Of a DNA stretch of 64,000 bases, positions 46,553 through 64,000 are shown one piece after another. The notes beneath the pieces are model-generated. The model made no database searches. It was not told the DNA's origin and saw only the letters and a list, made by a program, of their open reading frames with translations. This DNA comes from Verrucomicrobiales bacterium (GTDB lineage Bacteria > Verrucomicrobiota > Verrucomicrobiia > Verrucomicrobiales > V1-33). Both the position numbers and the translations under genes were made by a program. The DNA lies in contig JBBQWG010000036.1 in NCBI GenBank assembly GCA_038210825.1, forward strand, positions 607 to 64,606, written 5' to 3'. The first letter of the stretch is position 1; every line of letters starts with the position of its first letter.

Positions 46553-46727
46553 GGGCGTTCGGGACAATGAGGCAGGCGTCGTGCCAGCGGGCATGCCTAA
46601 GGCGGGGGCCCGGCAAGGTCAAGCCGCTCACGCCGGCGGCAGGCCCAGGGCAGGTAAAAGTCGGACCGCAGGTTCCCGGACCGGGAGCCAGGATCCGTCC
46701 ATGCCCTGACCAAGTGGGCACCTTCAG

Positions 46728-48254: not shown

Positions 48255-48472
48255 GCGCGGGGTTTTTCTCACGGTATCCCCGTATCGCGGGACATCCAGC
48301 ACTATCAGCAGGCACAGCAAATCAGCGCGCAGGAGCACTCCACCGGGAACACCCTATCCTCCAAGGTCCTTTACAGAGAGGCGCCAATACCTCCGTCATG
48401 GATTGCATGCGGACCGACGATGCCCGGTCCGGGGCCGGGAGCCTGGCTTTTTCAGCATCTCCACGAGGAAGA

Positions 48473-49513
48473 CTACTCGATGCCGGGACGCTCCACGACG
48501 AGGCGGTAGTAGGCCGCAGATTTGGCCCCGATGGTTTCCTTGACCGTGACTTTTTGGCGGTCTCCTTGACGCTCATTCACTAAATCCAGCGATTCTGACG
48601 ATGTGACCCACTCGCCCGTCGGATGCCGTGTGGCCAGGGGACGCCAGCCGGTGGACAGGTTCCCGGAACACTCCACCCGCAGCACTACATCCGGAAGGGC
48701 AGGATTGTGGAAAAGATCGAGGACGACCTGGTTTCCATCAATCCGCTGTTTGAAGGCATCATATCCGTCATTGAGGGAAGCCTGCAGGCCAAGGGCATAT
48801 TCACCCAGATTGCTCCAGCGGTCGCCATCGGCATTTACGGTGTCGCCGGCCACTTCGGGATTGGTTGCCTGAGCCCCGAAGGCCTGCTGCTGCCAGACTT
48901 CATAACTACCCACGGTGACGGTAAAGGATGCCGAGGTGCGGTTCCCGGACGGATCGGTGGCCGTGTAAGTAACGATCGTGGAGCCCGCCGGAAAGCGAAA
49001 TCCGGAGGGGTGGGAACTGGTCAGGGTTACGGTATTGCTGTTGTCCGTGGCCAGGGGCTCGGTCCAGGTGACCACGGCGGTAGCGCCACCAGGACTGTCA
49101 GGCACGGTGACAATGTTGGAAGGAAGACCTGTCAGAATGGGATTTACGGTATCTGCGGCTGGAGTGACAATCACTTCCAGTTCGGTTGAAGGCAGGCTCT
49201 CAAGGCCGGCGGTATTGTAGGCAATGGCGACCACGTAGAACGTCCGGGGTCCCGTTCCGGGGATGACGGCCATGGTGTTGTTGCCTGCTTCCACCACATT
49301 CGGGTAAGTGCCGCGCTGGTCACCAAACAACAGACGGTAGCCGATGACATCCGGCTCCGGATTCGCGTCCCATGCAATCGTGACGTCATAGGGCCCGGTG
49401 GCGTCCTCCGCCCCGGCCCGGGCAGAGCCCAGCCCCAACAGGACCATGGCGGCCACCCAACTGGACCGGCGGAAAAATCGCGGGGCAGACGCAAAAATAG
49501 GGTGGAAGAACAT
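48473..49513 (-). CDS. Secreted FN3 + HYR domain protein with PVC-type C-terminal domain
   Basis: VTIAWDANPEPDVIGY...AYNTAGLES (FN3); VTWTEPLATDNS...FPAGSTIVTYTATDPSGN (HYR); ends YYRLVVERPGIE. Confidence 0.85.
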   Translation of the reverse strand: MFFHPIFASAPRFFRRSSWVAAMVLLGLGSARAGAEDATGPYDVTIAWDANPEPDVIGYRLLFGDQRGTYPNVVEAGNNTMAVIPGTGPRTFYVVAIAYNTAGLESLPSTELEVIVTPAADTVNPILTGLPSNIVTVPDSPGGATAVVTWTEPLATDNSNTVTLTSSHPSGFRFPAGSTIVTYTATDPSGNRTSASFTVTVGSYEVWQQQAFGAQATNPEVAGDTVNADGDRWSNLGEYALGLQASLNDGYDAFKQRIDGNQVVLDLFHNPALPDVVLRVECSGNLSTGWRPLATRHPTGEWVTSSESLDLVNERQGDRQKVTVKETIGAKSAAYYRLVVERPGIE

Positions 49514-49757: not shown

Positions 49758-51143
49758 ATGGCCCGTTCTATGTTCGTAATTATGCCTTTCAGGCTCCGCC
49801 TGTTTGCTGCCTTGCTTCTGTTGCCTCTGCCGGTGATGGGCGGGAGTGTGGATGCGGCCCTTGCAATGCGGCTGCTCAAGACCAATTGCCTTTCCTGCCA
49901 CAATGAGGAGAAGCGAAAAGGGGGACTCGCTCTATCCTCGCGGGAAGCCCTGCTGGCAGGAGGCGATGCCGGCGTGGCGGTGGTGGCAGGAAAACCAGAG
50001 GAAAGTCCGCTCATCCAATTGTTATCGGCATCGGCTGATCCCCACATGCCGCCGAAAAAGCAACTCACCCAGGCCCAGATCACTCTGATGGGAGAGTGGG
50101 TGCGGCAGGGGATCCTTTGGGACGCGGCGGCCCTTGCGGGGCAGACTCCGTCCCGTCCCGTGGTCCTGTCAGCACTGCCGCCTAACTACCGGCCGGTCAT
50201 GGCGGTGGCGCTCTCGCCGGATGGCCGGCATCTTGCGGTTGGCTGTGGCCATGAGTTGGTCATGTTCAGTCAGGATGCGAAGGGACTGGTCTACCAAACC
50301 AAGGCCCATGCGCATCTGGATCCGGTGCAGTCCATTGCCTGGATGCCGGATGGGAAGACTCTGGTGACAGGCGCATTCCGCCGGGTCGTGGTCTGGGAAG
50401 CGGAACCCCTTAGACAAAAGCGTGAGATCGTTTCCGGCCTGACGGACCGGATCACCGCGGTCCTCGCCGGTCCCGGACCCGGGCGGGTGTTGCTCGCCGA
50501 CGGGCTGGTGGCGGAAAGTGGCGTGGTCCGCGAGTTGGACCCAGTGTCAGGAGAAATAGTCCGGTCGTGGACCGCCCATGATGACACCATTTTTGCCATG
50601 GCCCTGAGCAGTGACGGCAAACACCTGGCCACCGCCGGGGGAGACAAACTGGTCAAATTGTGGGATCCGGCCACGGGCAAGGAACTGGCCCGGCTGGAGG
50701 GCCACTCATCACAAGTGCTCAGCCTTGCATTCCATCCCGATGGATCGCAGTTGGTCACCGGCGGGGCGGACCGCCAATTGAAAGTATGGAATGTGGCGAC
50801 GCGGGAAAATGTGGTGGCTTTTTCCAGCAAGGCCAGTGCCTTCAATGCTCTGCACTGGGGAGAAGGCGGGGCGGCAGTTTTTGCGGTGCTGGACGACGGC
50901 GCGGTGCTGAAATATACCGGCCTCATAAGCCACACCGGGGCCCAGAGTTCGGACAGCGGCCACGAAAAACGCATCGGTGAGGCGGCCTCAGCGCTTTATG
51001 CGCTTGCGGTGGATGCCACCGATGGCCGGATTATTGCCGGCACGCGGGAAGGGCGGATCCTCGCATGGAACAAGGAAGGGAAACTCACGGAGGACTTGCC
51101 CGCTTCCCCAACACAAGCCGCCACGACCCCGACTTCCCCATGA
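49758..51143 (+). CDS. Planctomycete cytochrome c domain + WD40 repeat protein (module 1)
   Basis: CLSCH...KGGL...GKPEES...MPP...WVRQG, followed by WD40 repeats (GGDKLVKLWD). Start could be 49758, 49770 or 49782. Confidence 0.88.
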   Translation: MARSMFVIMPFRLRLFAALLLLPLPVMGGSVDAALAMRLLKTNCLSCHNEEKRKGGLALSSREALLAGGDAGVAVVAGKPEESPLIQLLSASADPHMPPKKQLTQAQITLMGEWVRQGILWDAAALAGQTPSRPVVLSALPPNYRPVMAVALSPDGRHLAVGCGHELVMFSQDAKGLVYQTKAHAHLDPVQSIAWMPDGKTLVTGAFRRVVVWEAEPLRQKREIVSGLTDRITAVLAGPGPGRVLLADGLVAESGVVRELDPVSGEIVRSWTAHDDTIFAMALSSDGKHLATAGGDKLVKLWDPATGKELARLEGHSSQVLSLAFHPDGSQLVTGGADRQLKVWNVATRENVVAFSSKASAFNALHWGEGGAAVFAVLDDGAVLKYTGLISHTGAQSSDSGHEKRIGEAASALYALAVDATDGRIIAGTREGRILAWNKEGKLTEDLPASPTQAATTPTSP

Positions 51144-53641
51144 ATTATTTCAGTCACATCCGGCCTGCGGCCGCCAGTCTGGTCTTGTTTCTGACCGGAA
51201 CGGGCGGCCATGGCGCGGAGGCACCGGTTCCCGGGAGCTTGCCTCCGGAAACCGCTGCGGTCACCGGCATTCTGCTGGAACCTGCGGTGCTCCGTGTGGA
51301 AGCCGGACGCTCCCTGACTTTTCTCGTGACTGCCCGCCTCGCGGACGGATTTGAGGCCGACATCACCAGCCCCGCCGTGGTGACCCTCAGCGATCCTGAC
51401 AAAGCATCAGCAGGAGAGCCGGGGGTAATCCATGGCAAGGCTCCGGGCACGGTGATTCTCACGGCGGTTCACGGCCTCCACCGGGTGGAAGTGCCGGTGG
51501 AAGTGCTTCCATCGTCGGGTGAGCCGCCTTCCTTCGTGGGCGATGTCCTGCCCATTTTGGGAAAATCCGGATGCAATGCCGGGGCCTGTCATGCCAAAGC
51601 CGATGGGCAGAATGGTCTGCGCCTGACCATTTTTTCCTTCGACCCCCAGTCCGATTACCGGAACATTGTGGACGGAGCCCGGGGCCGCCGGGTCTTTCCT
51701 GCCGACCCGCCCGAAAGCCTGCTGCTGCTCAAGGCCACCCAGAGCGTGCCGCATGAGGGCGGAGCCCGCTTCGAACGCGGCTCGGAGGCATGGCACACCC
51801 TCGTCTCATGGATCGGATCCGGCATGACCTGGCAAAATGCCGGCGAACCGGCCCTGGCTTCCGTTTCCGTCCTGCCATCAACCCGCCGCTACCGCAAAGG
51901 AGCTGTCCAGCGGCTCGTGGTCAAGGCCCACTACACCGATGGGTCGGTCCGCGACGTCACGGCCCTCGCCCAGTTTGAGAGCAATAACAAGGAAGCCGCC
52001 ATCGTCAGCGAAGACGGCCGCATCACTGCGGGCCCCTCCTCCGGGCAGGCCGTGGTGGTGGCCCGCTTTATGGGCATGGTGGGGGGATCCCAGGTGCTGG
52101 TCCCGGAGGACCGGTTGTTGCCTGCAGGCGACTATCAATCGCTGCCGGTGCATAATTTTGTCGATGAACTGTCATGGAAGCACTTCCAGCAGTTGGGACT
52201 GCTCCCGTCCGGGCTCTGTTCGGACAGCGAGTTCCTGCGGCGGGCCACCCTCGACACGCTCGGGGTCCTGCCTGCGCCGGAAGAGGCGGCGGGCTTTCTG
52301 GCGGATCCTGATCCTGACAAACGCATCAAGGCGGTCGAACGGCTCCTGCAGCACCCGGCCTGGGCCGATCATCAGGCGGCCAAATGGGCGGATCTGTTGC
52401 GGCCCAACCCGGACCGGGCCGGAGTCAAAAGCGTATATCTGCTCGACCAGTGGCTTCGCGAAAGCTTCCGGCATAACAAGCCCTTCGACCAGTTAGTCCG
52501 GGAAATTGTGGTCGCCCAGGGCAATACCCACCGGTTCGGGCCGGCGGTGATCTACCGTGACCGGCGCGAGCCGGAGGACCTCACCACGATGTTCAGTCAG
52601 GTTTTCCTTGGGGTTCGCCTCGATTGTGCAAGGTGCCACCACCACCCCAATGAAAAGTGGAGTCAGGAGGACTTTTACCGCATGGCGGCCTTTTTCGGGC
52701 CCCTCAAACAAAAGGGTGGTGGCATCTCGGCGCCCATCTCCGGAGGGAATGAAACCTTTTTTGTTTCGGCAGGCCGTCCCCTCAAGCACCCGGTCACCGG
52801 TGAAGTCATGCAACCCAAGCCACCCGACGGTCCTGCTCCCACGGTGGTGGAAGGACAGGACCCGCGCCGGGCGCTGGCAGACTGGATGCTGCACCCTGAC
52901 AACCCCTTCTTTGCCCGGGCCATGGCCAACCGTCTCTGGGCGTCGTTTTTTGGCCGGGGCCTGGTCGATCCGGTGGATGACTTCCGCTTGTCCAACCCGC
53001 CTTCCCATCCCGCGCTGCTCGATGCCCTGGCGGCGGAGCTGGTCCGGGTGAAATTCGATGGCAAGGCCCTTGCCCGCACCATCCTGCAATCCCGGCTCTA
53101 TCAACTCAGCAGCCGGCCCAATGCCACCAATGCGGCGGACACCCGCCATTTTTCCCGCGCCTACCGGCGGCGGCTCGGGGCCGAGACCATGGCGGATGCC
53201 ATCGCGGATATCACCGGCGTGCCGACCAAATACCCCGGGCTGCCGGAGGGTTCGCGGGCGGTCCAGGCATGGACCTACAAGATTGACTCCCGGACCATGG
53301 ACGCCTTTGGCAGGCCGAATTCCAGCAGTGACTGTCCCTGCGAACGCAATCTGAAGCCTTCCATCGGACAGGCCCTGCATCTGATGAACTCGGAAGTGCT
53401 CCAGGGCAAACTCTCCAGCAGGGAAACCGCCAGCCGGGTGCAGCGCCTCGCCGCCAGCACCCTGCCGCCGTCCGCTGTCGTCTCTGAACTTTACCTTGCC
53501 TGTTATGGGCGGCTTCCGGATGAAGAGGAAAGCTGCGTCGCCACCGCCGCGTTTACCGGAGATCCGGCCGGGCGGCGGCAGGCCATCGAGGACATCCTCT
53601 GGGCCCTGCTCAATTCCGCTGAATTTGTTTTCAATCACTAG
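51140..53641 (+). CDS. DUF1549/DUF1553 protein with Ig-like domains (module 1)
   Basis: CNAGACH, EFLRRATLD, CARCHHHP, NRLWASFFGRGLVDPVDD, CPCER, LWALLNSAEFVFNH. ATGA overlap with the upstream gene. Confidence 0.92.
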   Translation: MNYFSHIRPAAASLVLFLTGTGGHGAEAPVPGSLPPETAAVTGILLEPAVLRVEAGRSLTFLVTARLADGFEADITSPAVVTLSDPDKASAGEPGVIHGKAPGTVILTAVHGLHRVEVPVEVLPSSGEPPSFVGDVLPILGKSGCNAGACHAKADGQNGLRLTIFSFDPQSDYRNIVDGARGRRVFPADPPESLLLLKATQSVPHEGGARFERGSEAWHTLVSWIGSGMTWQNAGEPALASVSVLPSTRRYRKGAVQRLVVKAHYTDGSVRDVTALAQFESNNKEAAIVSEDGRITAGPSSGQAVVVARFMGMVGGSQVLVPEDRLLPAGDYQSLPVHNFVDELSWKHFQQLGLLPSGLCSDSEFLRRATLDTLGVLPAPEEAAGFLADPDPDKRIKAVERLLQHPAWADHQAAKWADLLRPNPDRAGVKSVYLLDQWLRESFRHNKPFDQLVREIVVAQGNTHRFGPAVIYRDRREPEDLTTMFSQVFLGVRLDCARCHHHPNEKWSQEDFYRMAAFFGPLKQKGGGISAPISGGNETFFVSAGRPLKHPVTGEVMQPKPPDGPAPTVVEGQDPRRALADWMLHPDNPFFARAMANRLWASFFGRGLVDPVDDFRLSNPPSHPALLDALAAELVRVKFDGKALARTILQSRLYQLSSRPNATNAADTRHFSRAYRRRLGAETMADAIADITGVPTKYPGLPEGSRAVQAWTYKIDSRTMDAFGRPNSSSDCPCERNLKPSIGQALHLMNSEVLQGKLSSRETASRVQRLAASTLPPSAVVSELYLACYGRLPDEEESCVATAAFTGDPAGRRQAIEDILWALLNSAEFVFNH

Positions 53642-53664
53642 CTCTATCACCTATTCCCATACCC

Positions 53665-54996
53665 ATGGCCATTCATCAAAACTGTGACGGCACCCTGCGC
53701 CGCGACTTCCTCCAGTTGGGATTGCGTGGCCTCATGGGCTACGGACTCTGCGACCTGATGCGCTTCAAGGCCCAGGCCGCAGCCGCCGCGGGCACTTTGC
53801 CCAAAAACATCAACTGCATCATGATCTGGTTGGATGGGGGTCCCTCCCATTTCGAAACCTTTGACCCCAAGCCCGGAGCCCCGGCGGAGATCCGCGGCAC
53901 TTTTCCCACCGTGGCCACCAGCGTGCCCGGGGTGCATTTCAGCGAACCGGTCAGCAAACTGGCGGGAGTGTTCGACAAGTTCACGGTGGTGCGGTCCATC
54001 GCCCACCGCGACCCTAACCATGGAGGCGGGAACCATTACATGATGACCGGAGCCCCCACCCCGGTGCCGGTCGGCTGTGGAGCTTTTGTCACGTTCCATC
54101 CCTCCATGGGTTCCATGGTTTCCCACAGCCGGGGAGTGCAGGGGGGCCTTCCCGCCTACATGGCCATGCCTTCCAACACCCGGTCCGGAGGACCCAATTT
54201 CCTCGGAGGCCAGCACGCCCCGTTTATTATTCCCGGTGGTCCCAATGCCAAATCCTTCCGGGTCAATGACGTCGTCCTGCCTGCGGACATTGCGGAGGGC
54301 AGGGTGCAGTCGCGCCGCCATCTGCGGGAGGCCCTCGACCGCATGCAGCGCAGCAACGACAAGCTGGTGGAGGACCCTGCCGTGGAATTCGACCGCTTTT
54401 ATGAGCAGGGATTCGACCTCGTCTCGTCGGCCCGGGCGCAGGAAGCTTTTGATATCAGCCGGGAGGATCCCAAGGTCCGGGAACGTTATGGCCGCAACGA
54501 TATGGGCCAGCGTTTTCTGCTGGCCCGGCGGCTGGTGGAGGTGGGCGTTTCCTGGGTCACGGTCAATTGGGGGGGCTGGGACCATCACAATGAAATCGAA
54601 ACCGCCTACAAGGGCGACTCCCTCAAATCCCTCGACCAAGGGGTGTCGGCCCTCCTGACAGATCTGGACGAACGCGGGCTGCTGGACACCACCCTGGTCC
54701 TGCTGCTGGGGGAATTCGGCCGCACTCCCAAGATCAATGAGCGTGGCGGCCGGGATCACTGGCCGCATGCCATGTCCGTGCTGATGGCCGGAGCCGGCAT
54801 TCCCGGCGGCCAGATTGTGGGGGCCACCGATGCCCGCGGGTATTATGCTTCCGAAAACGTCTACCGGCCCGAGGACTTTGCGGCTTCCATCTATACCAAA
54901 ATGGGCATCGATCCCCACCAGCATCTCGAGACCACCGCCGGCCGGCCGGTGCAACTGGTCAATGATGGACGCTTGATCCGGGAACTGTTTGTCTAA
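53665..54996 (+). CDS. DUF1501 family protein (module 1)
   Basis: RRDFL twin-Arg motif, GGPSHFETFDPKP, LARRLVE, WDHH, GEFGRTP, GRDHW. Confidence 0.93.
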   Translation: MAIHQNCDGTLRRDFLQLGLRGLMGYGLCDLMRFKAQAAAAAGTLPKNINCIMIWLDGGPSHFETFDPKPGAPAEIRGTFPTVATSVPGVHFSEPVSKLAGVFDKFTVVRSIAHRDPNHGGGNHYMMTGAPTPVPVGCGAFVTFHPSMGSMVSHSRGVQGGLPAYMAMPSNTRSGGPNFLGGQHAPFIIPGGPNAKSFRVNDVVLPADIAEGRVQSRRHLREALDRMQRSNDKLVEDPAVEFDRFYEQGFDLVSSARAQEAFDISREDPKVRERYGRNDMGQRFLLARRLVEVGVSWVTVNWGGWDHHNEIETAYKGDSLKSLDQGVSALLTDLDERGLLDTTLVLLLGEFGRTPKINERGGRDHWPHAMSVLMAGAGIPGGQIVGATDARGYYASENVYRPEDFAASIYTKMGIDPHQHLETTAGRPVQLVNDGRLIRELFV

Positions 54997-54999
54997 CCG

Positions 55000-56637
55000 A
55001 TGCGTGCCATTTTTTCAGGGACCCTCGGGCTGGCCGCAGGCGGCATGGCCCTGACGGCCGCAGAGCCGGTCCTGACCCATGTGCATCCGGCCGCCCTGCA
55101 GGCCGGAACCACCGGCGTGGTCAGTCTTGCCGGCACGTTTGACCCATGGCCCTGCCAAATCCATGCCTCCATGACCGGGCTGACTTTTGTGCCGCAAAAG
55201 GACCCCGGAAATTTCGAAGTGACCGTCGCCGCTTCAGTCCCTCCGGGCCCCTGTCTGCTGCGGGCCTACAATGACGATGGGGCCTCAGCCCCGGTGGCCT
55301 TCATGATCGCCGCCAGCCCGCAAACCCTGGAGACCGAGCCCAACGACGATTTCCGGAGTCCCCAGATCCTGACATCTCAGACCGGGACGCTGAATGGCCG
55401 GCTGGACAAAGCCGATGATGTGGATTCCTATCAGATATCCCTGCGGGCCGGACAAACCTTCGTCGCCTGGGCCGAGGCTCATGTCCTGGCCGCCGGATTT
55501 GATGCCATGCTGCGCCTTGTCGATGCCCACGGCAGCACCCTTGCTTTCAATCACGACGGCCCGTCCTCGATAGATCCCGTGCTGGTGTTCACGGCCCCCG
55601 TGGAGGGAGCCTACACCATCCAGATCATGGGCCACAAGTATCCGGCGGCGAGTGATATCCGTTTTGCCGGGGGCAAGGATTGCGTTTACCGGCTGCACTT
55701 TTCTACGGGTCCTCTGGTAAGGCACCCCTGGCCCTTGGCCGCTCCAAAAGAGGGCATGGTGTCGGTGGCGGGATGGAACCTGACGGGCCAGCGCATCGCC
55801 TGGCATCCTGACACGGCATTTTTGTATCCGATGGAGCCGGGTTTCCCGGTGGAATGGACGGAGGCCTCCGTGCCGGGCTTCCTAACCCCTTCCTCGGCGG
55901 TCAGCGGACAGATTTCGGCTCCCGGAGAGGAGGACCGGTATCCCTTCAAGGCGGCCAAAGACGAAACCCTTGAATTTTTCGTCACCGGACCGGGTCTGGG
56001 ATCGGAGATTGATCCATGGGTGAAGATCCGGAATGGCGAAGGCAAGGAACTGGCAAGCAATGATGATGCAGCGGGCAGCACGGAGTCCCGACTGGAGTGG
56101 AAAGCACCGGAGGATGGCGTTTTCTTCGCCGCCGTCGGCGACCTCACACAGCGCGGGGGACCTGACTATTATTACCGCCTGGCCCTGAGCCGTCCCGCAC
56201 CCGGAGTCACGGCCACCTCAGAGCCTCATGCATTTAAAATCAAAGCCGGCGAGTCGGTGCCGATCAAAGTCAAAGTCGGTTTTTCCCACGGCTTTGCCGT
56301 CCCCTTGACGCTGCAGGCGCGTTGCTTGCCCGAAGGAGTGACGGCGGCTCCCGCTACAATACCGCCGGGGGGAGGCGAAGTTGAACTAACACTCAAGGCG
56401 CCGGATGCCGCCAGCCCGGCCTCCCAGCCCTTCCAGTTGGTGCTCCAACCCGCCTCCGGCTTGCCGGAATTTTTTGTGGTGCACCGCCTGATCTCCACCT
56501 CGGAAAACAACGGCGTGCCCCAGGGTTTTAAGAAACTGCTCATCCCGGAGACGCAGGAATTCTGGCTTACCGTCAGTGCGCCCCCGGCCCCGGTCCCGCC
56601 CAAGGATGCCACTCCGCCCGCTCCACCCCCGCCCTGA
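55000..56637 (+). CDS. PPC (pre-peptidase C-terminal) repeat protein (module 1)
   Basis: ETEPND, NGRLDKADDVDSY, SGQISAPGEEDRY, ASNDD, YRL; no protease domain. Confidence 0.85.
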   Translation: MRAIFSGTLGLAAGGMALTAAEPVLTHVHPAALQAGTTGVVSLAGTFDPWPCQIHASMTGLTFVPQKDPGNFEVTVAASVPPGPCLLRAYNDDGASAPVAFMIAASPQTLETEPNDDFRSPQILTSQTGTLNGRLDKADDVDSYQISLRAGQTFVAWAEAHVLAAGFDAMLRLVDAHGSTLAFNHDGPSSIDPVLVFTAPVEGAYTIQIMGHKYPAASDIRFAGGKDCVYRLHFSTGPLVRHPWPLAAPKEGMVSVAGWNLTGQRIAWHPDTAFLYPMEPGFPVEWTEASVPGFLTPSSAVSGQISAPGEEDRYPFKAAKDETLEFFVTGPGLGSEIDPWVKIRNGEGKELASNDDAAGSTESRLEWKAPEDGVFFAAVGDLTQRGGPDYYYRLALSRPAPGVTATSEPHAFKIKAGESVPIKVKVGFSHGFAVPLTLQARCLPEGVTAAPATIPPGGGEVELTLKAPDAASPASQPFQLVLQPASGLPEFFVVHRLISTSENNGVPQGFKKLLIPETQEFWLTVSAPPAPVPPKDATPPAPPPP

Positions 56638-56882
56638 CAGATAACGCCCTCCGCTCCGTGGCTGGTGAATTTCACGTCATCAAAACGCCGCGATTGGAGA
56701 TTTCCTGTTCATCATCACTTTTCCCTGCACGCCACTGGGGACAATCGCTCCCACCTGCCGGATTGTTAAGACCATGGTGGTCTGAAAGTAGGTTAACCAT
56801 TTAGATTAAGTTATAACGCGCTGAAAAATTCTCATCGCCAAAACTCATGGGCTGCCGCAGCCGCAAAAATAGGATAAGTGGT

Positions 56883-59006
56883 CTAGTTCTGGCTGTTTTG
56901 CAGCCGGGCTGGGACAGCGGGAATTTCCGGGACCGCAAGCGGCACACTGTCGAAGGACCTGATGAGCTTACCGTCGGTGGCATCGTGAAACCGGACCTGG
57001 CCGTCGCTGCCGGCCGAGGCGAGGATGTTTTCCACCGGATGGAATGCCAGCGCAAAGATGGAGCCGCCGGTAGAGGGGATCGTGGTTTCCCGTTTGCCGG
57101 ACTCTGTCAGGAAGAGGCGGATCTCCCCGTTCTGGCCGCCGCAGGCCAGACGGGATCCATCCGCATTGAAGGCCACGGCGTGGAGCGGCGTGGCCATGTG
57201 TTCAAACTCGCGCACCGCACTCTCTTCCTTGTCATCGCCTTCCTTGAGCCGGCCTCCGCGGGGAGCCATGCGGTGGAGGCGCACTTTTCCTTCAGTGCCG
57301 GTAAAAGCCACGAGGTCTTCCTTCGGATGCCGGGCCAGAGCGAGGACCGGCTCGCGCGGGCGGGCGGCATCGTCGATCAGATGGCCGCTGGCCACATCGA
57401 TCAGTTTTACCCCGCGGTCGCGGCTGATGGAGATGAGTTTGGATCCATCGTGGGCAAAGGCGGTGCCGAATACCCAGTCGAGGTGGTTGTCGCACTGCAT
57501 CAGGCGGGCTCCGCTGGTGGCGTCGAAGGCCCTCACCAGTTTGTCAGCACCGCCGACCGCGAGACGGGAGCCGTCTTCGGACCATGAGACTCCATACAGC
57601 GTGTCCGGTCCTGCCCGGATGGAGCGGACGAGGCTGCCGGAGGCCACATCCCAAATCTGGATTTCACCAAACTCGGAGGGCGCTCCGCCACTGGCGGCAA
57701 GGAATTTTCCATCGCGGGAAAAGGCCAGGGATTCAATGCGCGGGGAATCCCCCAACCAACGCCCGGTGATGGCACTGCCGTCGCCGCGGTGGACCACGAT
57801 TTCGTGATGCCCGGCCACCGCGAGGAGTGATCCGTCAGGGGAAAAAGCCAGGGCGGGCACGGCGGGCAGCGCGGGGTAAACCGGCAGTTGGTCAGGACGG
57901 CGCGTGCCCAGCCCCTCCGGCGGAGTGTCATCCACCGATCCTTCCGCCACCCAGCGCGAAAGGATGCCCACTTCGGCTTCCGTGAGGGGGGCACCCTCCG
58001 GGGGCATGGCGGGTTCGTCGCCGCTTACTTCCGTGATCAGGGAACTGTCTGCAGGTGTGCCGGGACTGAAGACGGCCCCGTGTTTGCCACCCTTGAGCAT
58101 GGCGGCCATCGAGGTCAGATCCAGCTTGCCTTTTAGCTTGCCGGGACGGTGGCAGGAAACACAGTTCGCCCGCAGCACGGGCCAGACGTCCCGGGCAAAA
58201 CTAACGCCGCCGGATTGCTTGGCGGGTTCTGTCGTCACAGCCACTTTGAGGAGGTAGGAATGCCATTCGCTGCCAAAATCCAAGGCATCCTGGAGGACCA
58301 GAAAAACCGGCCCGTCTGCGGCCGGAGTCACTAACATCGCAGCATCGCGCGCCGTCAGGGAGGCATCGTCCATGGAGGCCAGTGGCTGTCCTGCCGCATC
58401 GTAGGCGGTCAGCAAGGGGTCCAGCAGCGAAGCGGCACCCTGCGCAGTGACGGAAACCTTCAGCGCCTGACCGGCCTTTCCAGCATGGGTGAAGACATCG
58501 ACATCGCGTTGCCCCTTGATCAGCCCGCTCACGCTTTGTCCGGGCTCCAGTTTCATGGCGGAGGAAAATCCTTGATTCGGTTCCTTTTCGTCCTGCAACT
58601 GCGCGGAAGGAACCACCTGCAACAGGACGGGCGCGGCCGGACCGGCAGCAGTCACGACGGACAAGGAGACCGGCCCCGCCGGGAAACCGGCGGAAAGGGT
58701 GAGATCAATGGTCACCTCGCTATCCCCCAACGGATCCTTATCCATCCCGGCCGGCGTTCCGGCGTCCTTTTTTTCCTTGATGGCAATCTTGTCAGGTTGG
58801 GTTTCCCCCCCGACGCGGACTTCGGTGGTTTCCTTCAAGCTGATTCCGCGCAGCCGGACGATGCCGGAAAAACCCTGCGGCACCGCGAGTGGCACCATGG
58901 CGGTGACCTTCGGATCCGGCGGGGGCTTGTCGTTGGCCGGGCTGAATGGCGCAGCCAGCGCGAAGCAACAAAGCGCGGGATAACGGATGGAACGATGATG
59001 GATCAC
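56883..59006 (-). CDS. PPC + planctomycete cytochrome c + WD40 fusion protein (module 2)
   Basis: EKEPN...DVDVF...LLDPLL (PPC); SFARDVWPVLRANCVSCH...MPP; WD40 repeats. Confidence 0.88.
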   Translation of the reverse strand: MIHHRSIRYPALCCFALAAPFSPANDKPPPDPKVTAMVPLAVPQGFSGIVRLRGISLKETTEVRVGGETQPDKIAIKEKKDAGTPAGMDKDPLGDSEVTIDLTLSAGFPAGPVSLSVVTAAGPAAPVLLQVVPSAQLQDEKEPNQGFSSAMKLEPGQSVSGLIKGQRDVDVFTHAGKAGQALKVSVTAQGAASLLDPLLTAYDAAGQPLASMDDASLTARDAAMLVTPAADGPVFLVLQDALDFGSEWHSYLLKVAVTTEPAKQSGGVSFARDVWPVLRANCVSCHRPGKLKGKLDLTSMAAMLKGGKHGAVFSPGTPADSSLITEVSGDEPAMPPEGAPLTEAEVGILSRWVAEGSVDDTPPEGLGTRRPDQLPVYPALPAVPALAFSPDGSLLAVAGHHEIVVHRGDGSAITGRWLGDSPRIESLAFSRDGKFLAASGGAPSEFGEIQIWDVASGSLVRSIRAGPDTLYGVSWSEDGSRLAVGGADKLVRAFDATSGARLMQCDNHLDWVFGTAFAHDGSKLISISRDRGVKLIDVASGHLIDDAARPREPVLALARHPKEDLVAFTGTEGKVRLHRMAPRGGRLKEGDDKEESAVREFEHMATPLHAVAFNADGSRLACGGQNGEIRLFLTESGKRETTIPSTGGSIFALAFHPVENILASAGSDGQVRFHDATDGKLIRSFDSVPLAVPEIPAVPARLQNSQN

Positions 59007-59039
59007 AACAAATGGGGCAGGGGAGGGTATCCCGGCCGT

Positions 59040-60371
59040 TCAGGAAAACAACTCGTGCACGGATGCTCCTTCGGAGAGGATGGTCACCGGCCGGCCCTCC
59101 GGCGTGACGATTTCATGGACCGGGTCGATTCCGAGCGCCTCGTAAACGGTCCATGCCACGTCGGCGGGGCGGACGGGACGGTCTGTCACAAAGGCGCCGT
59201 TTTTGTCAGTGGATCCCAGCACCAGCCCGCGCTGCACCCCGGCTCCGGCGAAGATCAGGCTGCCGGCGCGGCCCCAGTGGTCGCGTCCGGCCTTGTCATT
59301 GACCTTGGGAGTGCGGCCAAACTCGCCCATGCACAGCACCAGGGTATCGGCTAGAAGACCGCGTTGGTCCATGTCGCGGATCAGGGCGGAGAATCCCTGG
59401 TCGAACTCCGGCAGCTTTTTGTCGAGGCCTTCGAAAATTTTGTCATGGTGATCCCAGCCGCCATAATTCACGGTGACAAAACGCACCCCGTTCTCGACGA
59501 GGCGGCGGGCCATCAGACAGCTTTGACCGAACTCGCTGCGGCCGTAATCGTCCCGCACCGCAGCATCCTCCTTGTCGATGGCAAAGGCTTCCTGAGCTTG
59601 GGGTGCAAGGACCATGGCGGCAGCCTTCTGGCCAAACTCGTCGTAGGTCGCCACCTGATCGCTGCCTTTCACGCGGGCACCGAGTTGATCAATGGCCTCC
59701 AGCAGGGAACGCCGGCGTTCCAGGGAAGTGGGCGACTGCGGGGTGCCTGCAGAAAGATCGCGCACTTTGAAATTGCCCTCGTTGGGGTTGCCGCATTTGA
59801 AGGATTCGAAGCGTCCACCCAACCATGCACTTTTGCCCAACTCCCACGTGAAGGAGGGATTTTTCGGCACGGCCACGTAAGGGGGCACGAGGCCGGAAAA
59901 TCCGGTCTGATGCGCGACGATGGCTCCCATGGCGGGATGATCGCCAAAGGGAGTGCCGAAACGTCCGCTGAGCACCCAGTTGGTGGCCGTTTCGTGGTGG
60001 TCATTTTCGTGGGTGCCGGACCTCACCAGGGTCACGCGGTCCATGATCTTCGCCATTTTCGGGAGCAGTTCGCCGATGTGCAGACCGGGCACCGTGGTGG
60101 GGATACCTTTGTATTTTCCGCGGATTTGCTCCACGGCATCGGGTTTCAAATCGAAGGTATCGTGATGCGAAATCCCGCCGCCGAGGAAAACCAGCAGCAC
60201 CGATTTCGCCCGGGCCGCCGGGGCTCCGCCGATGGCGCGGGCCTGATCCGATGCCAGGAGGGAGGGCAGGGAAAGGCCGAGGGGAGCGAGGGCTCCGAGC
60301 CGCAGGAAGTCCCGCCGGGACGGGCCGGAACAGAGGCGGGAGCGGGTGGGGGCAAGATTGACCGAAAGCAT
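59040..60371 (-). CDS. DUF1501 family protein (module 2)
   Basis: SRRDFL, GGISHHDTFDLKP, MARRLVE, WDHH, GEFGRTP, GRDHW. Confidence 0.93.
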   Translation of the reverse strand: MLSVNLAPTRSRLCSGPSRRDFLRLGALAPLGLSLPSLLASDQARAIGGAPAARAKSVLLVFLGGGISHHDTFDLKPDAVEQIRGKYKGIPTTVPGLHIGELLPKMAKIMDRVTLVRSGTHENDHHETATNWVLSGRFGTPFGDHPAMGAIVAHQTGFSGLVPPYVAVPKNPSFTWELGKSAWLGGRFESFKCGNPNEGNFKVRDLSAGTPQSPTSLERRRSLLEAIDQLGARVKGSDQVATYDEFGQKAAAMVLAPQAQEAFAIDKEDAAVRDDYGRSEFGQSCLMARRLVENGVRFVTVNYGGWDHHDKIFEGLDKKLPEFDQGFSALIRDMDQRGLLADTLVLCMGEFGRTPKVNDKAGRDHWGRAGSLIFAGAGVQRGLVLGSTDKNGAFVTDRPVRPADVAWTVYEALGIDPVHEIVTPEGRPVTILSEGASVHELFS

Positions 60372-60376
60372 AACGG

Positions 60377-62734
60377 CTAGTGATTGAAGGTGAAATCCTT
60401 GGTATTGAGCAAAGCCCAGAACAGGTCGCGGAAGACGACATCCCGGGGATCGGATCCCAACTGGGAGTGGAAGAGGGCGCGCTCGGCCTCGGAAGGGGGA
60501 CGGGCGAGGCACGTGAGGTAGAGGCTGTCCAGCACCGCGTTGTCGTCCGGATTTTCCAGCAGCGCGGCGAGCCGGCCCTGTTTATGGGTGAGTTGGCGCT
60601 GCAATTCATCACCATTCCGCAGATTGAGCAGTTGGGGCAGCGTGACCTCGCCTTTGCGCTCGCAGGCGCAGGCGGTGACGCGGTCGGACCGGCCAAAAAG
60701 AGTGAGAAAATAGGAGGCCACTCCCGTGTCCGGCAATTGCACGGCACGCAGGCCCGTGGGGTAGCCGGGGAATTCATCCGGAACTCCGGTGGCGGCGGCG
60801 AGGGCGTCCAGCATGACTTCCGCAGGGAGGCGCCGGACGTAATAGTGGGAGAAAAAGCGCTGGTCGGTCTCGTTTTCGGGACGCGTGGCGGCGCTGAGTT
60901 GATAGGCACGGGAAGTCAGGATAAGCCGCATGATATGGCGGAGGTCATACCCATGGCTGCGGAACTCCGACCCCAGCAGTTGCCACAACTCCTCATTCGA
61001 GGGGGGATTGCTGGCGCGCAGATCATCCACCGGTTCGACCAGACCGGTGGCGAAGAAATGACGCCATAGCCGGTTGACCATGGCACCGGCAAATTCGGGA
61101 CTGCCGATGGCCCAGCCGGCAAAGGCGGTGCGGGGATCAGCCCCCTTGGCAAACTCCGGAGTGCTGCCGTCCAGCGCCCGGGCCGCGACCGCCCGGTTGG
61201 TGCGGGGTTGGTTCACCTGCGGGGGGCGGCTCTGCAATTCCTCCAGTCTCTTCTCCTGCTCCGTCACCTGCCTCCGCAGGTCGTCCTGTTCGGCCCCGGA
61301 TTTGTTGGCGTCCTCGGCCTCCCGCAGGTTTTTCACGGCCCCGGCGAGACGTTTGGCCTGTTCGGTTTCCTCCCGCGACTGGACCACCAGACGGCTGCCG
61401 CCCTTCTGGGGATTCTCCCGTTCGAGACTGGTTCTGCCGAAGAAGGCGGCGAAGTGATAGAAATCGTCCTGGGTGTATCGTTCCAGCGGATGGTTATGGC
61501 AACGCGCGCAGCCGATCCGGGTGCCGAGGAACGATTGGGCCACGGAGTCGGGAAGTTCCGATTTCTCGACCTCCCGTTGTGTGCCGATTACGGTGATGAA
61601 ATAACCGATTTCCGGGCGGCCGCGGACATCTCCCGTGGCCGTTAGGATTTCCCTCGAGATGCGGTCCCAGCCGGCCCCGGCGGCAAGCTGTCCCCGCAGC
61701 CATGCATGAAAGGCCCGCACCCCTTTGACGCCCCTGACGTCATGGTCCCGCTCGCGGCGGTTTTGCAGCACATCGGCCAGCTGCAGGGTCCAGTAGTCAA
61801 GCCATTCCGGACGGGCCAACAAGTGGTCGGCGAGGGCGGCGCGTTTGCCAGAGGAGCGGTCGTTGGTGAAGGCCGTCACCTCTTCCGGGGTCGGGAGCAT
61901 GCCGATGGTGTCGAGGAATGCCCGGCGCACGAATTCCGCGTCGCTGCAGTCTTCCGCTGGCGGGAGGCGCAATTGCTGCAGCTTGGAAAACACCGGCCCG
62001 TCCACCACACTGCGGCGTTCGGCGTAGACTTCCGGTGCCACTTCGTGGGGGTAAGGCATGGTGCAGCTCACCACCTGCACCAGATTCAAAAAATGCACCC
62101 TGACTGATGCTTCGCCATAGCCATGGGCGGTTATCTCTCCTTCCGGAGTCACCCGCAACAAAGCTTCGTCATTGGAAAAGAACTGCGCCAGCCATGTGAC
62201 GTCGGCAGTGCGTCCGTCGGCCTCACGCGCCAGCACCTTGAGCGTGAGTTTTCCTCCTGGCTGCAGGGTGCTCCCACCCGGTGTAACTACCAGGGCGACG
62301 GGCATCGGCTCATCGGCCACGGGTCCGGGGGCGCGTGCGGCGATCCAGTCCACCATGGTTTGCCATGCCCGGGATCCCTTGCGGAAGCGGGTGCCGCCCT
62401 CATGCATGACTCCGCCCGAAGCCTTTTCGACGAGCAAACTTTTTTCCGGAAAGGCAAAGTCGATGCGGCGTCCATTCACTTCCTGCGTGATCCACTCATG
62501 ATCCCATTCAGCGGCATACCCCCGGAGACTGAGCCGGAAGCCATTCTGCCCCTCCATCTTGCCGTGGCAGCCTCCCAAATTGCAGCCGGACTTGGTCAAC
62601 ACCGGCAGCACGTCGCGCTGAAAGGAAGGTATGGTCTTTCCTTCATCAGCCCCAACCAGCGAGGACCCTCCAATCATCAGCCCCGCCAGCACAATCCGGG
62701 TCAATAATCGGGAGTGGTTCTGGAAGATAATCAT
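60377..62734 (-). CDS. DUF1549/DUF1553 protein with Ig-like domain (module 2)
   Basis: CNLGGCH, EFVRRAFLD, CARCHNHP, NRLWRHFF, CACER, LFWALLNTKDFTFNH. Confidence 0.92.
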   Translation of the reverse strand: MIIFQNHSRLLTRIVLAGLMIGGSSLVGADEGKTIPSFQRDVLPVLTKSGCNLGGCHGKMEGQNGFRLSLRGYAAEWDHEWITQEVNGRRIDFAFPEKSLLVEKASGGVMHEGGTRFRKGSRAWQTMVDWIAARAPGPVADEPMPVALVVTPGGSTLQPGGKLTLKVLAREADGRTADVTWLAQFFSNDEALLRVTPEGEITAHGYGEASVRVHFLNLVQVVSCTMPYPHEVAPEVYAERRSVVDGPVFSKLQQLRLPPAEDCSDAEFVRRAFLDTIGMLPTPEEVTAFTNDRSSGKRAALADHLLARPEWLDYWTLQLADVLQNRRERDHDVRGVKGVRAFHAWLRGQLAAGAGWDRISREILTATGDVRGRPEIGYFITVIGTQREVEKSELPDSVAQSFLGTRIGCARCHNHPLERYTQDDFYHFAAFFGRTSLERENPQKGGSRLVVQSREETEQAKRLAGAVKNLREAEDANKSGAEQDDLRRQVTEQEKRLEELQSRPPQVNQPRTNRAVAARALDGSTPEFAKGADPRTAFAGWAIGSPEFAGAMVNRLWRHFFATGLVEPVDDLRASNPPSNEELWQLLGSEFRSHGYDLRHIMRLILTSRAYQLSAATRPENETDQRFFSHYYVRRLPAEVMLDALAAATGVPDEFPGYPTGLRAVQLPDTGVASYFLTLFGRSDRVTACACERKGEVTLPQLLNLRNGDELQRQLTHKQGRLAALLENPDDNAVLDSLYLTCLARPPSEAERALFHSQLGSDPRDVVFRDLFWALLNTKDFTFNH

Positions 62735-62954: not shown

Positions 62955-64000
62955 TTATCGCTTCGCTCCTCCCAGCCGGGGCGGGGCTTGCTGCCAGAAC
63001 ATGCTGCGGAGGGGGTGTTCATCGGTCAGGTTGGCTTCGAGTCCGCCGAGATAGCCTGGCTGGTAGAACTGGACTCCCACATAATGGTAGACCGGGGCAA
63101 TGACGCATTCGGTTTCGATGAGCTGGGTCTCCGCCTGCCGGAGGATGGCATAACGTTTCGTCGGATCGGCCTCGGCCGCAGCCTCGTTGATGAGGGTATC
63201 ATAAGCGGGGCTGCCCCACCCGGTGCGGTTGTTGCCGCTGTTGGTGAGGAACATGTCGAGGAAGGTGTTGGGGTCATTGTAGTCCCCCACCCAACTGGAG
63301 CGGCAGACGTCGTAATCGACCTTCTTCTGGGAATCCAGATAGGTTTTATATTCCTCACTGGTCAGGGCCACGGTGATGCCGAGATGGCGTTGCCAGACGG
63401 ACTGCAGTTCCACCGCGATGCCCCGGTCTGAGGGGAACTTGCTGGGGTAGAGAAAACTCAGCACGGGGAATCCGCGGCCGTCCGGGTATCCGGCCTCGGC
63501 AAGCAGGCGTTTCGCCTCCGCAATGTCAGGATGCAGCCCGGCCGGCGGTTGATAGTTGTCTCCCGTGCCAGGCGGCGTGATGGCAAAAGCCGGCACTTCC
63601 CCGAGGCGGGTGACCGCATTGACAATGCGTTCACGGTCCAGCACGAGGGTCAGGGCCTTGCGGACCCGGGGATCATGATAGGGTTTGCGCTGGGCATTGA
63701 AGCGGATAAACCAGGTGGCCAGAAACGGTTTGTGGTGGAAGTAGGGCTTTTTGCGCAGTTCATCGGCGAGGGCGCTGGGGATCAACCCCTTGTCCATCAT
63801 CAGATCGGCCCCGTCTGTCAGGAAAAGATTCACTGCCGTGGCGGCATTGTCGATGGGCAGGACATCGATGCTGGCCATCCGGACATTGCCCGCATCCCAG
63901 TAGGTGGGGCTGCGTTCGAGGCGGATGCGGTCGTTGAGCCGCCACTCCTTGAGTTGATAGGGTCCGTTGCCAATGAGGTTGCCGGGTTTGAAATAGGCCG
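62955..64000 (-). CDS. oppA: Oligopeptide ABC transporter substrate-binding protein (5'-truncated by the window edge)
   Basis: Frame open to the window end (IGNGPYQLKEW, RSPTYWD); DPRVRKAL, LLAEAGY, WVGDYNDP. Confidence 0.88.
   Translation of the reverse strand, partial: AYFKPGNLIGNGPYQLKEWRLNDRIRLERSPTYWDAGNVRMASIDVLPIDNAATAVNLFLTDGADLMMDKGLIPSALADELRKKPYFHHKPFLATWFIRFNAQRKPYHDPRVRKALTLVLDRERIVNAVTRLGEVPAFAITPPGTGDNYQPPAGLHPDIAEAKRLLAEAGYPDGRGFPVLSFLYPSKFPSDRGIAVELQSVWQRHLGITVALTSEEYKTYLDSQKKVDYDVCRSSWVGDYNDPNTFLDMFLTNSGNNRTGWGSPAYDTLINEAAAEADPTKRYAILRQAETQLIETECVIAPVYHYVGVQFYQPGYLGGLEANLTDEHPLRSMFWQQAPPRLGGAKR

What the first reader, a model, noticed from the sequence alone, without database searches (positions are those of the whole stretch)
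49758..62734. Two convergent paralogous four-component heme/WD40/DUF1501 modules: an uncharacterised periplasmic redox machine
Seen: module 1 (+) is cytC-WD40, Ig-DUF1549/1553, DUF1501, PPC protein, with overlap or 3-23-bp gaps. Module 2 (-) is Ig-DUF1549/1553, DUF1501, PPC-cytC-WD40. The same four parts are kept in two diverged copies with shuffled order, and PPC is a separate gene in one copy but fused to cytC-WD40 in the other, which is Rosetta-stone evidence for a complex. Conserved in both copies: atypical CX4CH (CNAGACH/CNLGGCH), CARCHxHP, CxCER and terminal FNH in the large subunit; CxSCH...MPP in cytC; Cys then RRDFL twin-Arg leader, WDHH and GRDHW in DUF1501. Known: these families are expanded in Planctomycetes and Verrucomicrobia and, to my knowledge, have no established function. 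Inference: a Tat-exported metalloenzyme (DUF1501) wired to c-type hemes, with WD40/PPC/Ig domains as scaffold or substrate capture, and paralogues giving different specificities.
Basis: partly seen in the sequence, partly recalled or inferred. Interest (0 to 1): 0.7.

Follow-up and report, generated by a model that had tools for sequence, protein, structure and literature searches.

The report
Two known DUF1501–cytochrome gene modules
The seven genes are two old, diverged copies of a gene module described in 2012 in Verrucomicrobia and Planctomycetes; they likely encode an exported complex in which a phosphatase-fold metal enzyme is predicted to dock on a partner with haem-attachment motifs, and its reaction is still untested.

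Summary
In detail: seven intact genes, two convergent modules, every quoted motif present (one gap is 33 bp, not 3-23). The system is not new. Kamneva et al. 2012 describe this four-gene cluster and draw the same inference, and this scan has noted it before in other genomes. This genome has 36 DUF1501 genes. The convergent pairing is absent in 7 of 7 informative relatives. The PPC-cytochrome fusion is recent (fused in 5 of 9, split in 4 of 9), but the other fusions between the Sec-type parts also occur, so the complex argument stands.

Added here: DUF1501 has the alkaline-phosphatase fold (Z about 20 to NPP enzymes) with an invariant Asp/His/His metal site and a His apparently in place of the usual nucleophile (register not statistically shown). 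It is predicted to bind the C-terminal helices of the large subunit (0.76, best control 0.00). Five of five sigma-factor-DUF1501 fusions carry those helices and no haem motif. The CX4CH domain resembles a cytochrome c fold (Z 7.8, middling).

Best reading: an exported metalloenzyme coupled to a three-haem relay. Haem attachment, export route, substrate and redox role are untested.

The parts
49758..51143 (+). Module 1, W: Sec-type leader, PSCyt1 cytochrome c domain (CLSCH44-48, Met97 in MPP), WD40 propeller; 461 aa; start codon inferred
51140..53641 (+). Module 1, L (large subunit, 833 aa): Sec-type leader, Ig, CX4CH domain, Ig (Big_2), PSCyt2/DUF1549, PSD1/DUF1553
51572..51592 (+). CX4CH motif (C145, C150, H151); with His205 a predicted His/His c-type haem site
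   Evidence: conserved in 112-113 of 116 rows; domain aligns to the cytochrome FoxE, Z 7.8, rmsd 2.6, 91 residues
52625..52645 (+). CxxCHxH motif of PSCyt2 (C496, C499, H500, H502); likely haem site, distal ligand unknown
   Evidence: 116 of 116 rows; CxxCH in 33 of 33 paralogues, H502 in 32 of 33
53333..53347 (+). CxCER loop (C732, C734); role unknown
   Evidence: 93 and 101 of 116 rows; a Cys in this loop in 23 of 33 paralogue tails
53525..53638 (+). C-terminal helices of L (residues 796-833, ending FNH): predicted docking site for DUF1501
   Evidence: interface (lettered); same segment fused to DUF1501 in 5 of 5 sigma-factor fusions
53665..54996 (+). Module 1, D: DUF1501, 443 aa, twin-Arg-type leader, alkaline-phosphatase-superfamily fold
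54019..54021 (+). His119, first residue of the helix that carries the nucleophile in this superfamily (position inferred)
   Evidence: 35 of 36 paralogues, the other truncated; helix 119-128; profile register not significant
54577..54762 (+). WDHH (D306, H308), EFGR (E350, R353), GRDHW (H365): predicted metal site
   Evidence: each 36 of 36 paralogues; E350 aligns to the Asp of the sulfatase S-D-H/N-G motif
55000..56637 (+). Module 1, P: protein with two PPC-type units, Sec-type leader, 545 aa
56638..56882 (.). 245-bp gap between the converging 3' ends; no convincing terminator; adjacency not conserved
56883..59006 (-). Module 2, P-W fusion: one PPC unit, PSCyt1 (CVSCH282, MPP334), WD40; 707 aa; GTG start inferred
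59040..60371 (-). Module 2, D: DUF1501, 443 aa from the ATG at 60371, twin-Arg-type leader, same conserved site (His127, WDHH, EFGR, GRDHW)
60377..62734 (-). Module 2, L: CX4CH domain, one Ig-like region, PSCyt2, charged insertion, PSD1, terminal FNH; 785 aa

Best explanation
Each module likely encodes one exported complex in which a DUF1501 metal enzyme of the alkaline-phosphatase fold is predicted to dock on a scaffold that likely carries three c-type haems, which would pass electrons to or from a reaction that is still unknown. Steps. (1) Shown: genes, domains, motifs and their conservation; D and L are inherited as pairs; W, L and P fuse in every pairwise combination. (2) Predicted: D has the alkaline-phosphatase fold, closest to NPP enzymes; its helical insertion (residues 200-253) packs on the last helices of L. 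(3) Inferred: Asp306/His308/His365 hold a metal as in the second zinc site of NPP; His119 and Glu350 sit at the nucleophile and first-metal positions, so D is not a classical Ser/Thr/formylglycine hydrolase; Arg353/Arg363 bind an anionic group. (4) Inferred: D leaves by Tat; W, L and P leave by Sec and get haem from the CcsBA-type system: His/Met in PSCyt1, His/His in the CX4CH domain, a third at CxxCHxH. (5) Inferred, weakest: the complex does redox-coupled chemistry on an imported anionic small molecule, probably sugar-derived, with WD40, Ig and PPC domains as scaffold and substrate capture. The two copies are independent old paralogues that lie side by side only in this genome among those tested.
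For: Fold: Foldseek top hits are sulfatases (E about 1e-7); VIA-align top hits ENPP7, Xac NPP, ENPP4, ENPP6, Z 20.0-20.4, rmsd 3.0-3.3, about 250 residues, model pLDDT 85.8. Invariant site residues. D is the most conserved subunit (63-88% against 28-64% for W and P in module 1 orthologues). Complex score 0.76, best of 3 controls 0.00; runs agree in at least 79% of contacts; partner pLDDT at least 86; this mark was reached by 116 of 157 solved complexes and 2 of 215 mismatched pairs, counts that hold only roughly for this job. No solved homologue of the PSD1 or DUF1501 interface regions was found by sequence. Independent support: 5 of 5 ECF sigma-TM-DUF1501 proteins carry the L tail (E 1e-7 to 5e-14; 1 non-L hit among 25,786 genome ORFs as control). 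Co-inheritance r 0.89 over 30 pairs, 0.71 within 21 pairs. Fusions: W+L 7 of 150, P+L 8 of 150 representatives; W+L 3 of 17 module 1 loci; P+W 5 of 9 module 2 loci. CcsBA-type and TatC genes present. CX4CH is a proven haem motif in hydrazine dehydrogenase (PMC6469936, passage). PSCyt genes track oxic layers, neighbour sulfatases and often carry sugar-binding domains (PMC5615132, passages).
Against: No call shows haem, metal, export, co-transcription or activity. The FoxE match is Z 7.8, a level the tool calls common; the PSCyt2/PSD1 core had no fold match tested. The complex output names neither the catalytic residues nor the haem motif or CxCER in the interface, and gives no haem position. 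The P0003 leader has a weak hydrophobic stretch with Arg and Asp in it (mean hydropathy 1.06). The sigma fusions keep the whole DUF1501 site with no haem motif and no twin-Arg leader. Three of six modules of this type in the genome lack P or W or both at the locus, and one relative has L with no DUF1501 within 19 kb (L061).
Confidence: 0.42

Rival explanations
1. D is a non-redox hydrolase or transferase for phosphate or sulfate esters (His119 as phospho-acceptor or base). The haem proteins only anchor, gate or redox-regulate it.
For: All 50 listed fold neighbours of D are alkaline-phosphatase-superfamily enzymes or their relatives. The Asp/His/His site and two arginines suit an oxyanion. The site is intact in haem-free sigma and kinase fusions and in LRR fusions. 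PSCyt genes neighbour sulfatases.
Against: The two other first-metal ligands are lost: position 57 is rarely Asp and position 351 is Phe in 35 of 36. No Ser, Thr or Cys at the inferred nucleophile position. A plain hydrolase would not explain near-obligate pairing with invariant CxxCHxH proteins (31 of 36).
Confidence: 0.27
2. The module is a periplasmic sensing or ligand-binding device. D binds a metal or small anion, the haems report redox state, and paralogues sense different cues.
For: DUF1501 plus the L tail forms the outer part of 5 membrane-anchored ECF sigma factors, and DUF1501 that of 1 Ser/Thr kinase, among 91 longer homologues. In R. baltica a PSD1/PSC2 gene is linked to an ECF sigma factor (PMC2754498, passage). 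Sigma-70 genes often neighbour planctomycete WD40 genes (PMC5587647, passage).
Against: No protein of the window has a transmembrane helix past its leader (maximum 19-residue hydropathy 1.0-1.6), and no regulator or other flanking gene is conserved next to either module except a generic ABC ATPase hit in 4 loci. The five fusions are kin (42-75% identical), one contig each, and may be one recruitment of a dead or live enzyme.
Confidence: 0.13
3. The Cys/His motifs of L (CX4CH, CxxCHxH, CxC) hold zinc, copper or disulfides rather than haem, so the complex is mainly structural envelope material and only W is a cytochrome.
For: The invariant extra His502 is too close to be the distal ligand of its own haem, and no other His or Met is invariant in the core; the loop Cys is missing in 10 of 33 tails. 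L has Ig domains like those of S-layer and adhesion proteins. Kamneva et al. found a correlation with internal membranes.
Against: The CX4CH domain has a cytochrome-c-like fold and a conserved distal His. Exported CxxCH motifs in a cell with CcsBA normally receive haem (established knowledge). A structural role does not need an invariant enzyme site.
Confidence: 0.12
4. The two convergent modules are one functional locus (a hybrid complex or co-regulated pair) kept together by selection.
For: They end 245 bp apart. Other paralogous modules also lie side by side (C6 of this genome; G007).
Against: In 7 of 7 relatives with 3-15 kb of flank, module 1 does not follow module 2; in all 10 relatives with a module 2 orthologue the module 1 orthologue is on another contig. 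Each module sits in its own fully supported orthologue clade (quick tree).
Confidence: 0.04

Closest known systems
The 'most complex' four-gene DUF1501 / PPC / PSCyt1-Big_2-PSCyt2-PSD1 / PSCyt1-WD40 cluster of PVC bacteria (Kamneva et al. 2012, PMC3542564, section 22 read whole)
   Same: All four gene products, signal peptides, twin-Arg leader, many paralogous copies per genome, and the inference of a Tat-exported enzyme wired to cytochromes.
   Different: Gene order is permuted. In module 2 PPC is fused to PSCyt1-WD40. The N-terminal haem domain of L has CX4CH and no Pfam PSCyt1 hit here. The section read does not give the fold, the site residues, the CX4CH motif or the interface (its supplement was not read).
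PSCyt gene groups of freshwater Verrucomicrobia (He et al. 2017, PMC5615132, passages)
   Same: PSCyt/PSD architectures with Big_2 and WD40, next to a conserved unknown family; predicted periplasmic; function unknown.
   Different: No carbohydrate-binding module was detected in these seven proteins, and no sulfatase or other neighbour is conserved beside either module.
Nucleotide pyrophosphatase/phosphodiesterases (ENPP4/6/7, Xac NPP) and formylglycine sulfatases, alkaline phosphatase superfamily
   Same: Core fold (Z 15-20); an Asp/His/His set like the second zinc site; an acidic residue at the S-D-H-G position.
   Different: His instead of Ser/Thr/formylglycine at the inferred nucleophile position; first-strand Asp and D-H His not kept; D-x-H spacing; a helical insertion used for partner docking; near-obligate haem-motif partner.
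Sox system (SoxB hydrolase with SoxXA cytochromes) and quinohaemoprotein amine dehydrogenase, as working analogies (Sox recalled, no call)
   Same: An exported metal or propeller enzyme working with c-type cytochromes. The amine dehydrogenase alpha chain (haem + Ig domains) appears among fold hits of L (Foldseek E 2e-4, VIA Z 8.4).
   Different: No sequence relation shown; the match covers only Ig and haem parts; no carrier protein or quinone subunit is seen.

Membership tests
Kamneva four-gene DUF1501/PSCyt cluster | DUF1501 gene, often with twin-Arg leader | tested here: met
   PF07394 E 2e-104 and 3e-99; RRDFL in both
Kamneva four-gene DUF1501/PSCyt cluster | PPC-domain protein with signal peptide | tested here: met
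   PF04151 in P0004; PPC unit at the N-terminus of P0005; leaders judged by hydropathy only
Kamneva four-gene DUF1501/PSCyt cluster | Big_2 / PSCyt2 / PSD1 large protein | tested here: met
   PF07583 and PF07587 in both; PF02368 in P0002 only
Kamneva four-gene DUF1501/PSCyt cluster | PSCyt1 domain at the N-terminus of the large protein | tested here: inconclusive
   No Pfam PSCyt1 hit; a CX4CH domain with cytochrome-c-like fold stands in that place, probably the domain the paper meant
Kamneva four-gene DUF1501/PSCyt cluster | PSCyt1 / WD40 protein, all genes clustered | tested here: met
   PF07635 + PF00400 in P0001 and P0005; gaps -4 to 33 bp
Alkaline phosphatase superfamily (DUF1501) | Core alpha/beta fold | tested here: met
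   Z 20.4, rmsd 3.0, 250 aligned; all 50 listed rows from the superfamily; Foldseek E 8e-8
NPP / alkaline phosphatase / sulfatase families | Ser, Thr or Cys(formylglycine) nucleophile on the conserved helix (PMC11677397, passages) | tested here: inconclusive
NPP family | First zinc site: two Asp, one His and the nucleophile | tested here: not met
   E350-F351 aligns to the D-H/N pair; F in 35 of 36; position 57 rarely Asp
NPP family | Second zinc site: one Asp and two His | tested here: inconclusive
   D306, H308, H365 invariant; geometry and metal not seen
Formylglycine sulfatases | C/S-x-P-x-R motif | tested here: not met
   Absent at the matching place in P0003 and P0006
c-type cytochromes | Haem-attachment motif, export signal, and a maturation system in the cell | tested here: met
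   CxxCH and CX4CH motifs, Sec-type leaders by hydropathy, CcsBA-type gene
c-type cytochromes | Covalently bound haem | not testable with these tools
   needs haem stain or mass spectrometry
Tat substrates | Twin-Arg motif, hydrophobic stretch, cleavage site, TatC-dependent export | tested here: inconclusive
   RR in 34 of 36 paralogues, TatC present, but a weak, charged h-region in P0003; no predictor or experiment

The most novel reading that the evidence does not exclude
DUF1501 is an alkaline-phosphatase scaffold turned into a redox metalloenzyme: the nucleophile has become a His, and an Asp/His/His/His/Glu metal centre, docked through one helical hairpin on a three-haem wire, does oxidative chemistry on imported sugars or sulfated and phosphorylated compounds. 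Dozens of co-evolving pairs per genome would be a large unrecognised oxidative toolkit of Verrucomicrobia and Planctomycetes, and the first redox branch of this superfamily that I know of.
Probability: 0.22. Interest if true: 0.8.

Novelty: new member of a known kind. Interest (0 to 1): 0.3.

Why it matters
The locus itself is ordinary for its lineage: a 2012 paper describes the cluster, and it is repeated many times in this genome and its relatives. The family is a long-standing open question, since it is among the most expanded gene sets in two abundant phyla and has no known reaction. The results here make it easier to test: they name the likely metal and catalytic residues (H119, D306, H308, E350, R353, H365), a short docking segment (L 796-833 against D 200-253), natural W+L and P+W fusions that cut the number of chains to express, and haem-free sigma fusions that would separate enzyme from wire.

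Tried and rejected
1. Convergent pair as a conserved locus: rejected.
2. Recent inverted duplication: rejected; 38-40% identity and separate orthologue clades (the careful tree did not finish, so the quick tree with SH-aLRT only was used).
3. L+D fusions as Rosetta evidence: 7 of 91 longer homologues join them, but 5 (P0278, P0280, P0281, P0364, P0365) keep an internal leader with RR, all are single-member clusters, and several lack the L tail. Treated as likely read-through or assembly artefacts.
4. Terminal His833 as an essential haem ligand: not supported; His in 85 and Arg in 14 of 116 rows, other endings in the two-gene type; it lies in the predicted docking face.
5. CxCER Cys as a family-wide haem ligand: not supported, 23 of 33 tails (one further case, C41, was misaligned and does have CECER).
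6. Profile proof of the His119 register: failed.
No solved sequence homologue was listed.
8. Promoter and terminator scan: 2 promoter-like sites against 2.7 expected; 26 terminator-like against 14.6 expected, none convincing in the gap.
9. Expression: no RNA holder listed; no evidence either way.
10. Protein atlas gave no result for the PPC protein or a large-subunit homologue. NCBIfam gave no family over cut-off for the core genes, only DVUA0089 for the PPC unit.
11. Literature searches listed no experimental study of the module and no paper on its fold, site or interface. Most hits were seen as listings only, subscription papers are not covered, and the supplements of PMC3542564 and PMC5615132 were not read and may hold more on architectures and fusions.
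12. Absence of module 2 in the other 20 relatives is not claimed: only 33 candidates per genome were scored.


Full report
OBSERVATION. The region holds seven intact genes. I call the parts W (cytochrome c + WD40), L (large subunit), D (DUF1501) and P (PPC protein). Module 1 (+): W 49758-51143, L 51140-53641, D 53665-54996, P 55000-56637. Module 2 (-): L 62734-60377, D 60371-59040, P-W fusion 59006-56883. Pfam confirms the domains; the PPC unit of the fusion is shown by BLAST and a profile. Gaps are -4, 23, 3 and 5, 33 bp, and the modules end 245 bp apart. The order is a circular permutation, W-L-D-P against L-D-P-W. Cross-module identity is 38% for L, 40% for D and 29% for W.

PRIOR ART. Kamneva et al. 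2012 (PMC3542564; abstract, passages and section 22 read, supplement not) list this four-gene cluster part by part and infer a twin-Arg-exported enzyme with cytochromes and WD40/Big_2 interaction domains. He et al. 2017 (PMC5615132, passages) report these genes as abundant in freshwater Verrucomicrobia of oxic layers, near sulfatases, often with sugar-binding domains, function unknown. The named close homologues of D come from Verrucomicrobia. Earlier notes of this scan record the same module in other genomes; they are leads only.

GENOME CONTEXT. Among 25,786 stop-to-stop ORFs, 36 match D and 34 match L (two L pieces on contigs C32 and C44 overlap and are one gene). 31 of 36 D genes have an L gene within 3.5 kb. 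Over 30 usable pairs the two distance matrices correlate at r 0.89 (0 of 5000 shuffles reach it), and at 0.71 within 21 pairs of the two-gene type. This shows co-duplication, not binding specificity. Six L genes have the CX4CH domain, and their D partners form one clade (SH-aLRT 98, quick tree). Three of the six have all four parts at the locus (the two here, and C32+C44 in the order D-P-L-W); C54 has D-P-L, C41 has a W-L fusion plus D, C19 has L-D only. In a phylum sample 31 of 61 genomes have DUF1501 over the cut-off. The genome has a CcsBA-type haem attachment gene and tatC.

RELATIVES. A module 2 orthologue was found in 10 of 30 relatives. Of 9 complete loci, P-W is fused in 5, which are the closest (L 78-89% identical), and split in 4 (58-72%), where W has its own leader. 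The fusion is therefore probably one recent event between neighbours. For module 1 I fetched 17 loci, the top hits except one partial. 13 of 17 keep all four parts in the order W-L-D-P, 2 are cut by contig ends, 1 lacks W and 1 has L alone; W and L are fused in 3. Among the 150 best representatives of L, 7 are W+L and 8 are P+L fusions, and none includes D. All three pairwise fusions of the Sec-type parts thus exist, which is stronger evidence for a complex than the single fusion cited. The convergent pairing is not conserved: module 1 is absent from 3-15 kb of downstream flank in 7 of 7 informative relatives (3 end at contig edges), and lies on another contig in all 10.

DUF1501. The model (pLDDT 85.8) matches the alkaline phosphatase superfamily: sulfatases by Foldseek (E about 1e-7) and NPP enzymes by VIA-align (Z 20.0-20.4, rmsd 3.0-3.3, about 250 residues). 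I recall that InterPro already tags many DUF1501 proteins with this superfamily (no call). D306, H308, E350, G352, R353 and H365 are invariant in 36 of 36 paralogues and H119 in 35 of 36, the exception being truncated. By the superfamily's pattern (PMC11677397, passages), D306/H308/H365 fit the second zinc site of NPP. E350-F351 aligns to the D-H/N pair (profile E 1.6e-8), so that His is lost, and the first-strand Asp is not conserved. H119 begins helix 119-128 with T-G nine residues on, the spacing that the Cys motif shows in this genome's sulfatases. A profile alignment gives that register but without significance (E 0.12, inside the range of 30 shuffles), so the placement is an inference. 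D is the most conserved subunit. Its leader has RR in 34 of 36 paralogues and a Cys five residues upstream in 112 of 118 RR-bearing close homologues (120 examined), but a weak, charged hydrophobic stretch. Tat export is likely, not shown.

LARGE SUBUNIT. The model is confident (pLDDT 93.2, pTM 0.93): Ig, CX4CH domain, Ig, helical core. The CX4CH domain aligns with the cytochrome FoxE (Z 7.8, rmsd 2.6, 91 residues, a middling score) and keeps a His at 205 in 113 of 116 rows, which suggests a His/His haem. CX4CH is a proven haem motif in hydrazine dehydrogenase (PMC6469936, passage). CxxCHxH is invariant in 116 of 116 rows; its distal ligand is unknown. CxC and the terminal His are conserved in this subfamily but not family-wide. 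The fold of the core was barely tested.

COMPLEX. L (P0002 residues 325-833) with D (45-443) and one haem scored 0.76 against 0.00 for the best of 3 controls. The runs agree in at least 79% of contacts and the partner's pLDDT is at least 86. The mark was reached by 116 of 157 solved complexes and 2 of 215 mismatched pairs; these counts hold only roughly here. The interface is the end of L (738-759, 796-833; D818, W821, A822, N825) against the helical insertion of D (200-253; R217, L220, R221, L224), the least confident part of mature D when folded alone. Site residues and haem motifs are not named in the interface, and no haem position was reported. A search for longer DUF1501 homologues (91 hits) gave independent support: 5 ECF sigma factor-TM-DUF1501 proteins, 5 of 5 followed by one or two copies of the L tail (E 1e-7 to 5e-14; 1 non-L hit in the genome control). 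They are related to each other (42-75%). They keep all site motifs but have no haem motif and no RR leader, which also argues that D can be used without haems in the same chain. Apparent L+D fusions look like read-through artefacts.

MECHANISM. Most likely (0.42): a periplasmic complex in which Tat-exported D carries a non-classical metal site, docks on the tail of L, and is coupled to three c-type haems (His/Met in W, His/His and one of unknown ligation in L) for redox-linked chemistry on an imported anionic small molecule, with WD40, Ig and PPC domains as scaffold and capture. Physical pairing of D and L I put near 0.85, and haem on W and L near 0.8; the redox role and the substrate are the weak steps. 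Rivals: plain hydrolase or transferase with regulatory haems (0.27), sensor (0.13), structural non-haem complex (0.12), one joint locus (0.04).

VERDICT. A real feature and a correct re-discovery of a published, still unexplained module: new members of a known kind. The convergent arrangement carries no demonstrated meaning. The site residues, the docking segment and the sigma fusions were not found in the papers searched (mostly listings; PMC7826278, PMC11495043, PMC2754498 and PMC5587647 seen as passages only) and make the open question easier to test. Interest 0.3.

Noticed in passing
proteins P0348, P0357, P0358, P0359, P0362 (and kinase P0360): ECF sigma factor - transmembrane helix - DUF1501 - large-subunit tail fusions with an intact site and no haem motif; a Ser/Thr kinase carries DUF1501 likewise, without the tail. 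DUF1501 appears to have been recruited as an outer sensor domain.
   Followed up: partly
most of proteins P0285-P0356: About two-thirds of the 91 longer DUF1501 homologues are DUF1501 + leucine-rich-repeat proteins (named ones from Planctomycetota) with the site motifs kept. Separate PSCyt1-LRR genes follow D in loci L006 and L007.
   Followed up: partly
window 51140-53641 (P0002 residues 361-404 against 780-825) and P0007 262-305: A profile of the L tail weakly matches the first helices of PSCyt2 (E 9e-3 and 4e-5 in a two-sequence search): a possible internal repeat, and perhaps a second docking face.
   Followed up: no
window 53683-53685 (Cys7 of P0003) and the same place in P0006: A Cys five residues before the twin Arg is kept in 112 of 118 close homologues, unusual for the n-region of a cleaved leader.
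   Followed up: partly
window 12173-12637 (+): A small stand-alone gene matching the PSCyt1 cytochrome domain (E about 1e-9).
   Followed up: no
window 48473-49513 (-): Secreted protein with a HYR domain and an adhesin-like C-terminus, divergent from module 1; not conserved beside it in relatives.
   Followed up: partly
window 46728-48338 (-); 43709-46594 (-); 62955-63998 (-): BON-MscS channel gene; ABC ATPase plus solute-binding protein; family 5 solute-binding protein upstream of module 2. Ordinary neighbours.
   Followed up: no
window 40994-43495 (-): BspA-type leucine-rich-repeat protein (LRR_5, E 1e-242), at the edge of the GC-skew spike at 42001-44000.
   Followed up: no
L018 (G000:C6:49500-60000); L050 (G007); L061 (G028): Two more cases of paralogous modules side by side (divergent in C6, tandem in G007), and one module 1 large-subunit orthologue with no DUF1501 gene within 19 kb.
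   Followed up: no
L065:1486-2889: An NPP-like protein of this genome has S-E-Y-G where NPP has S-D-H-G, echoing the E-F-G of DUF1501; it follows a 3-dehydroquinate-synthase-like gene (family judged by eye, no call).
   Followed up: no
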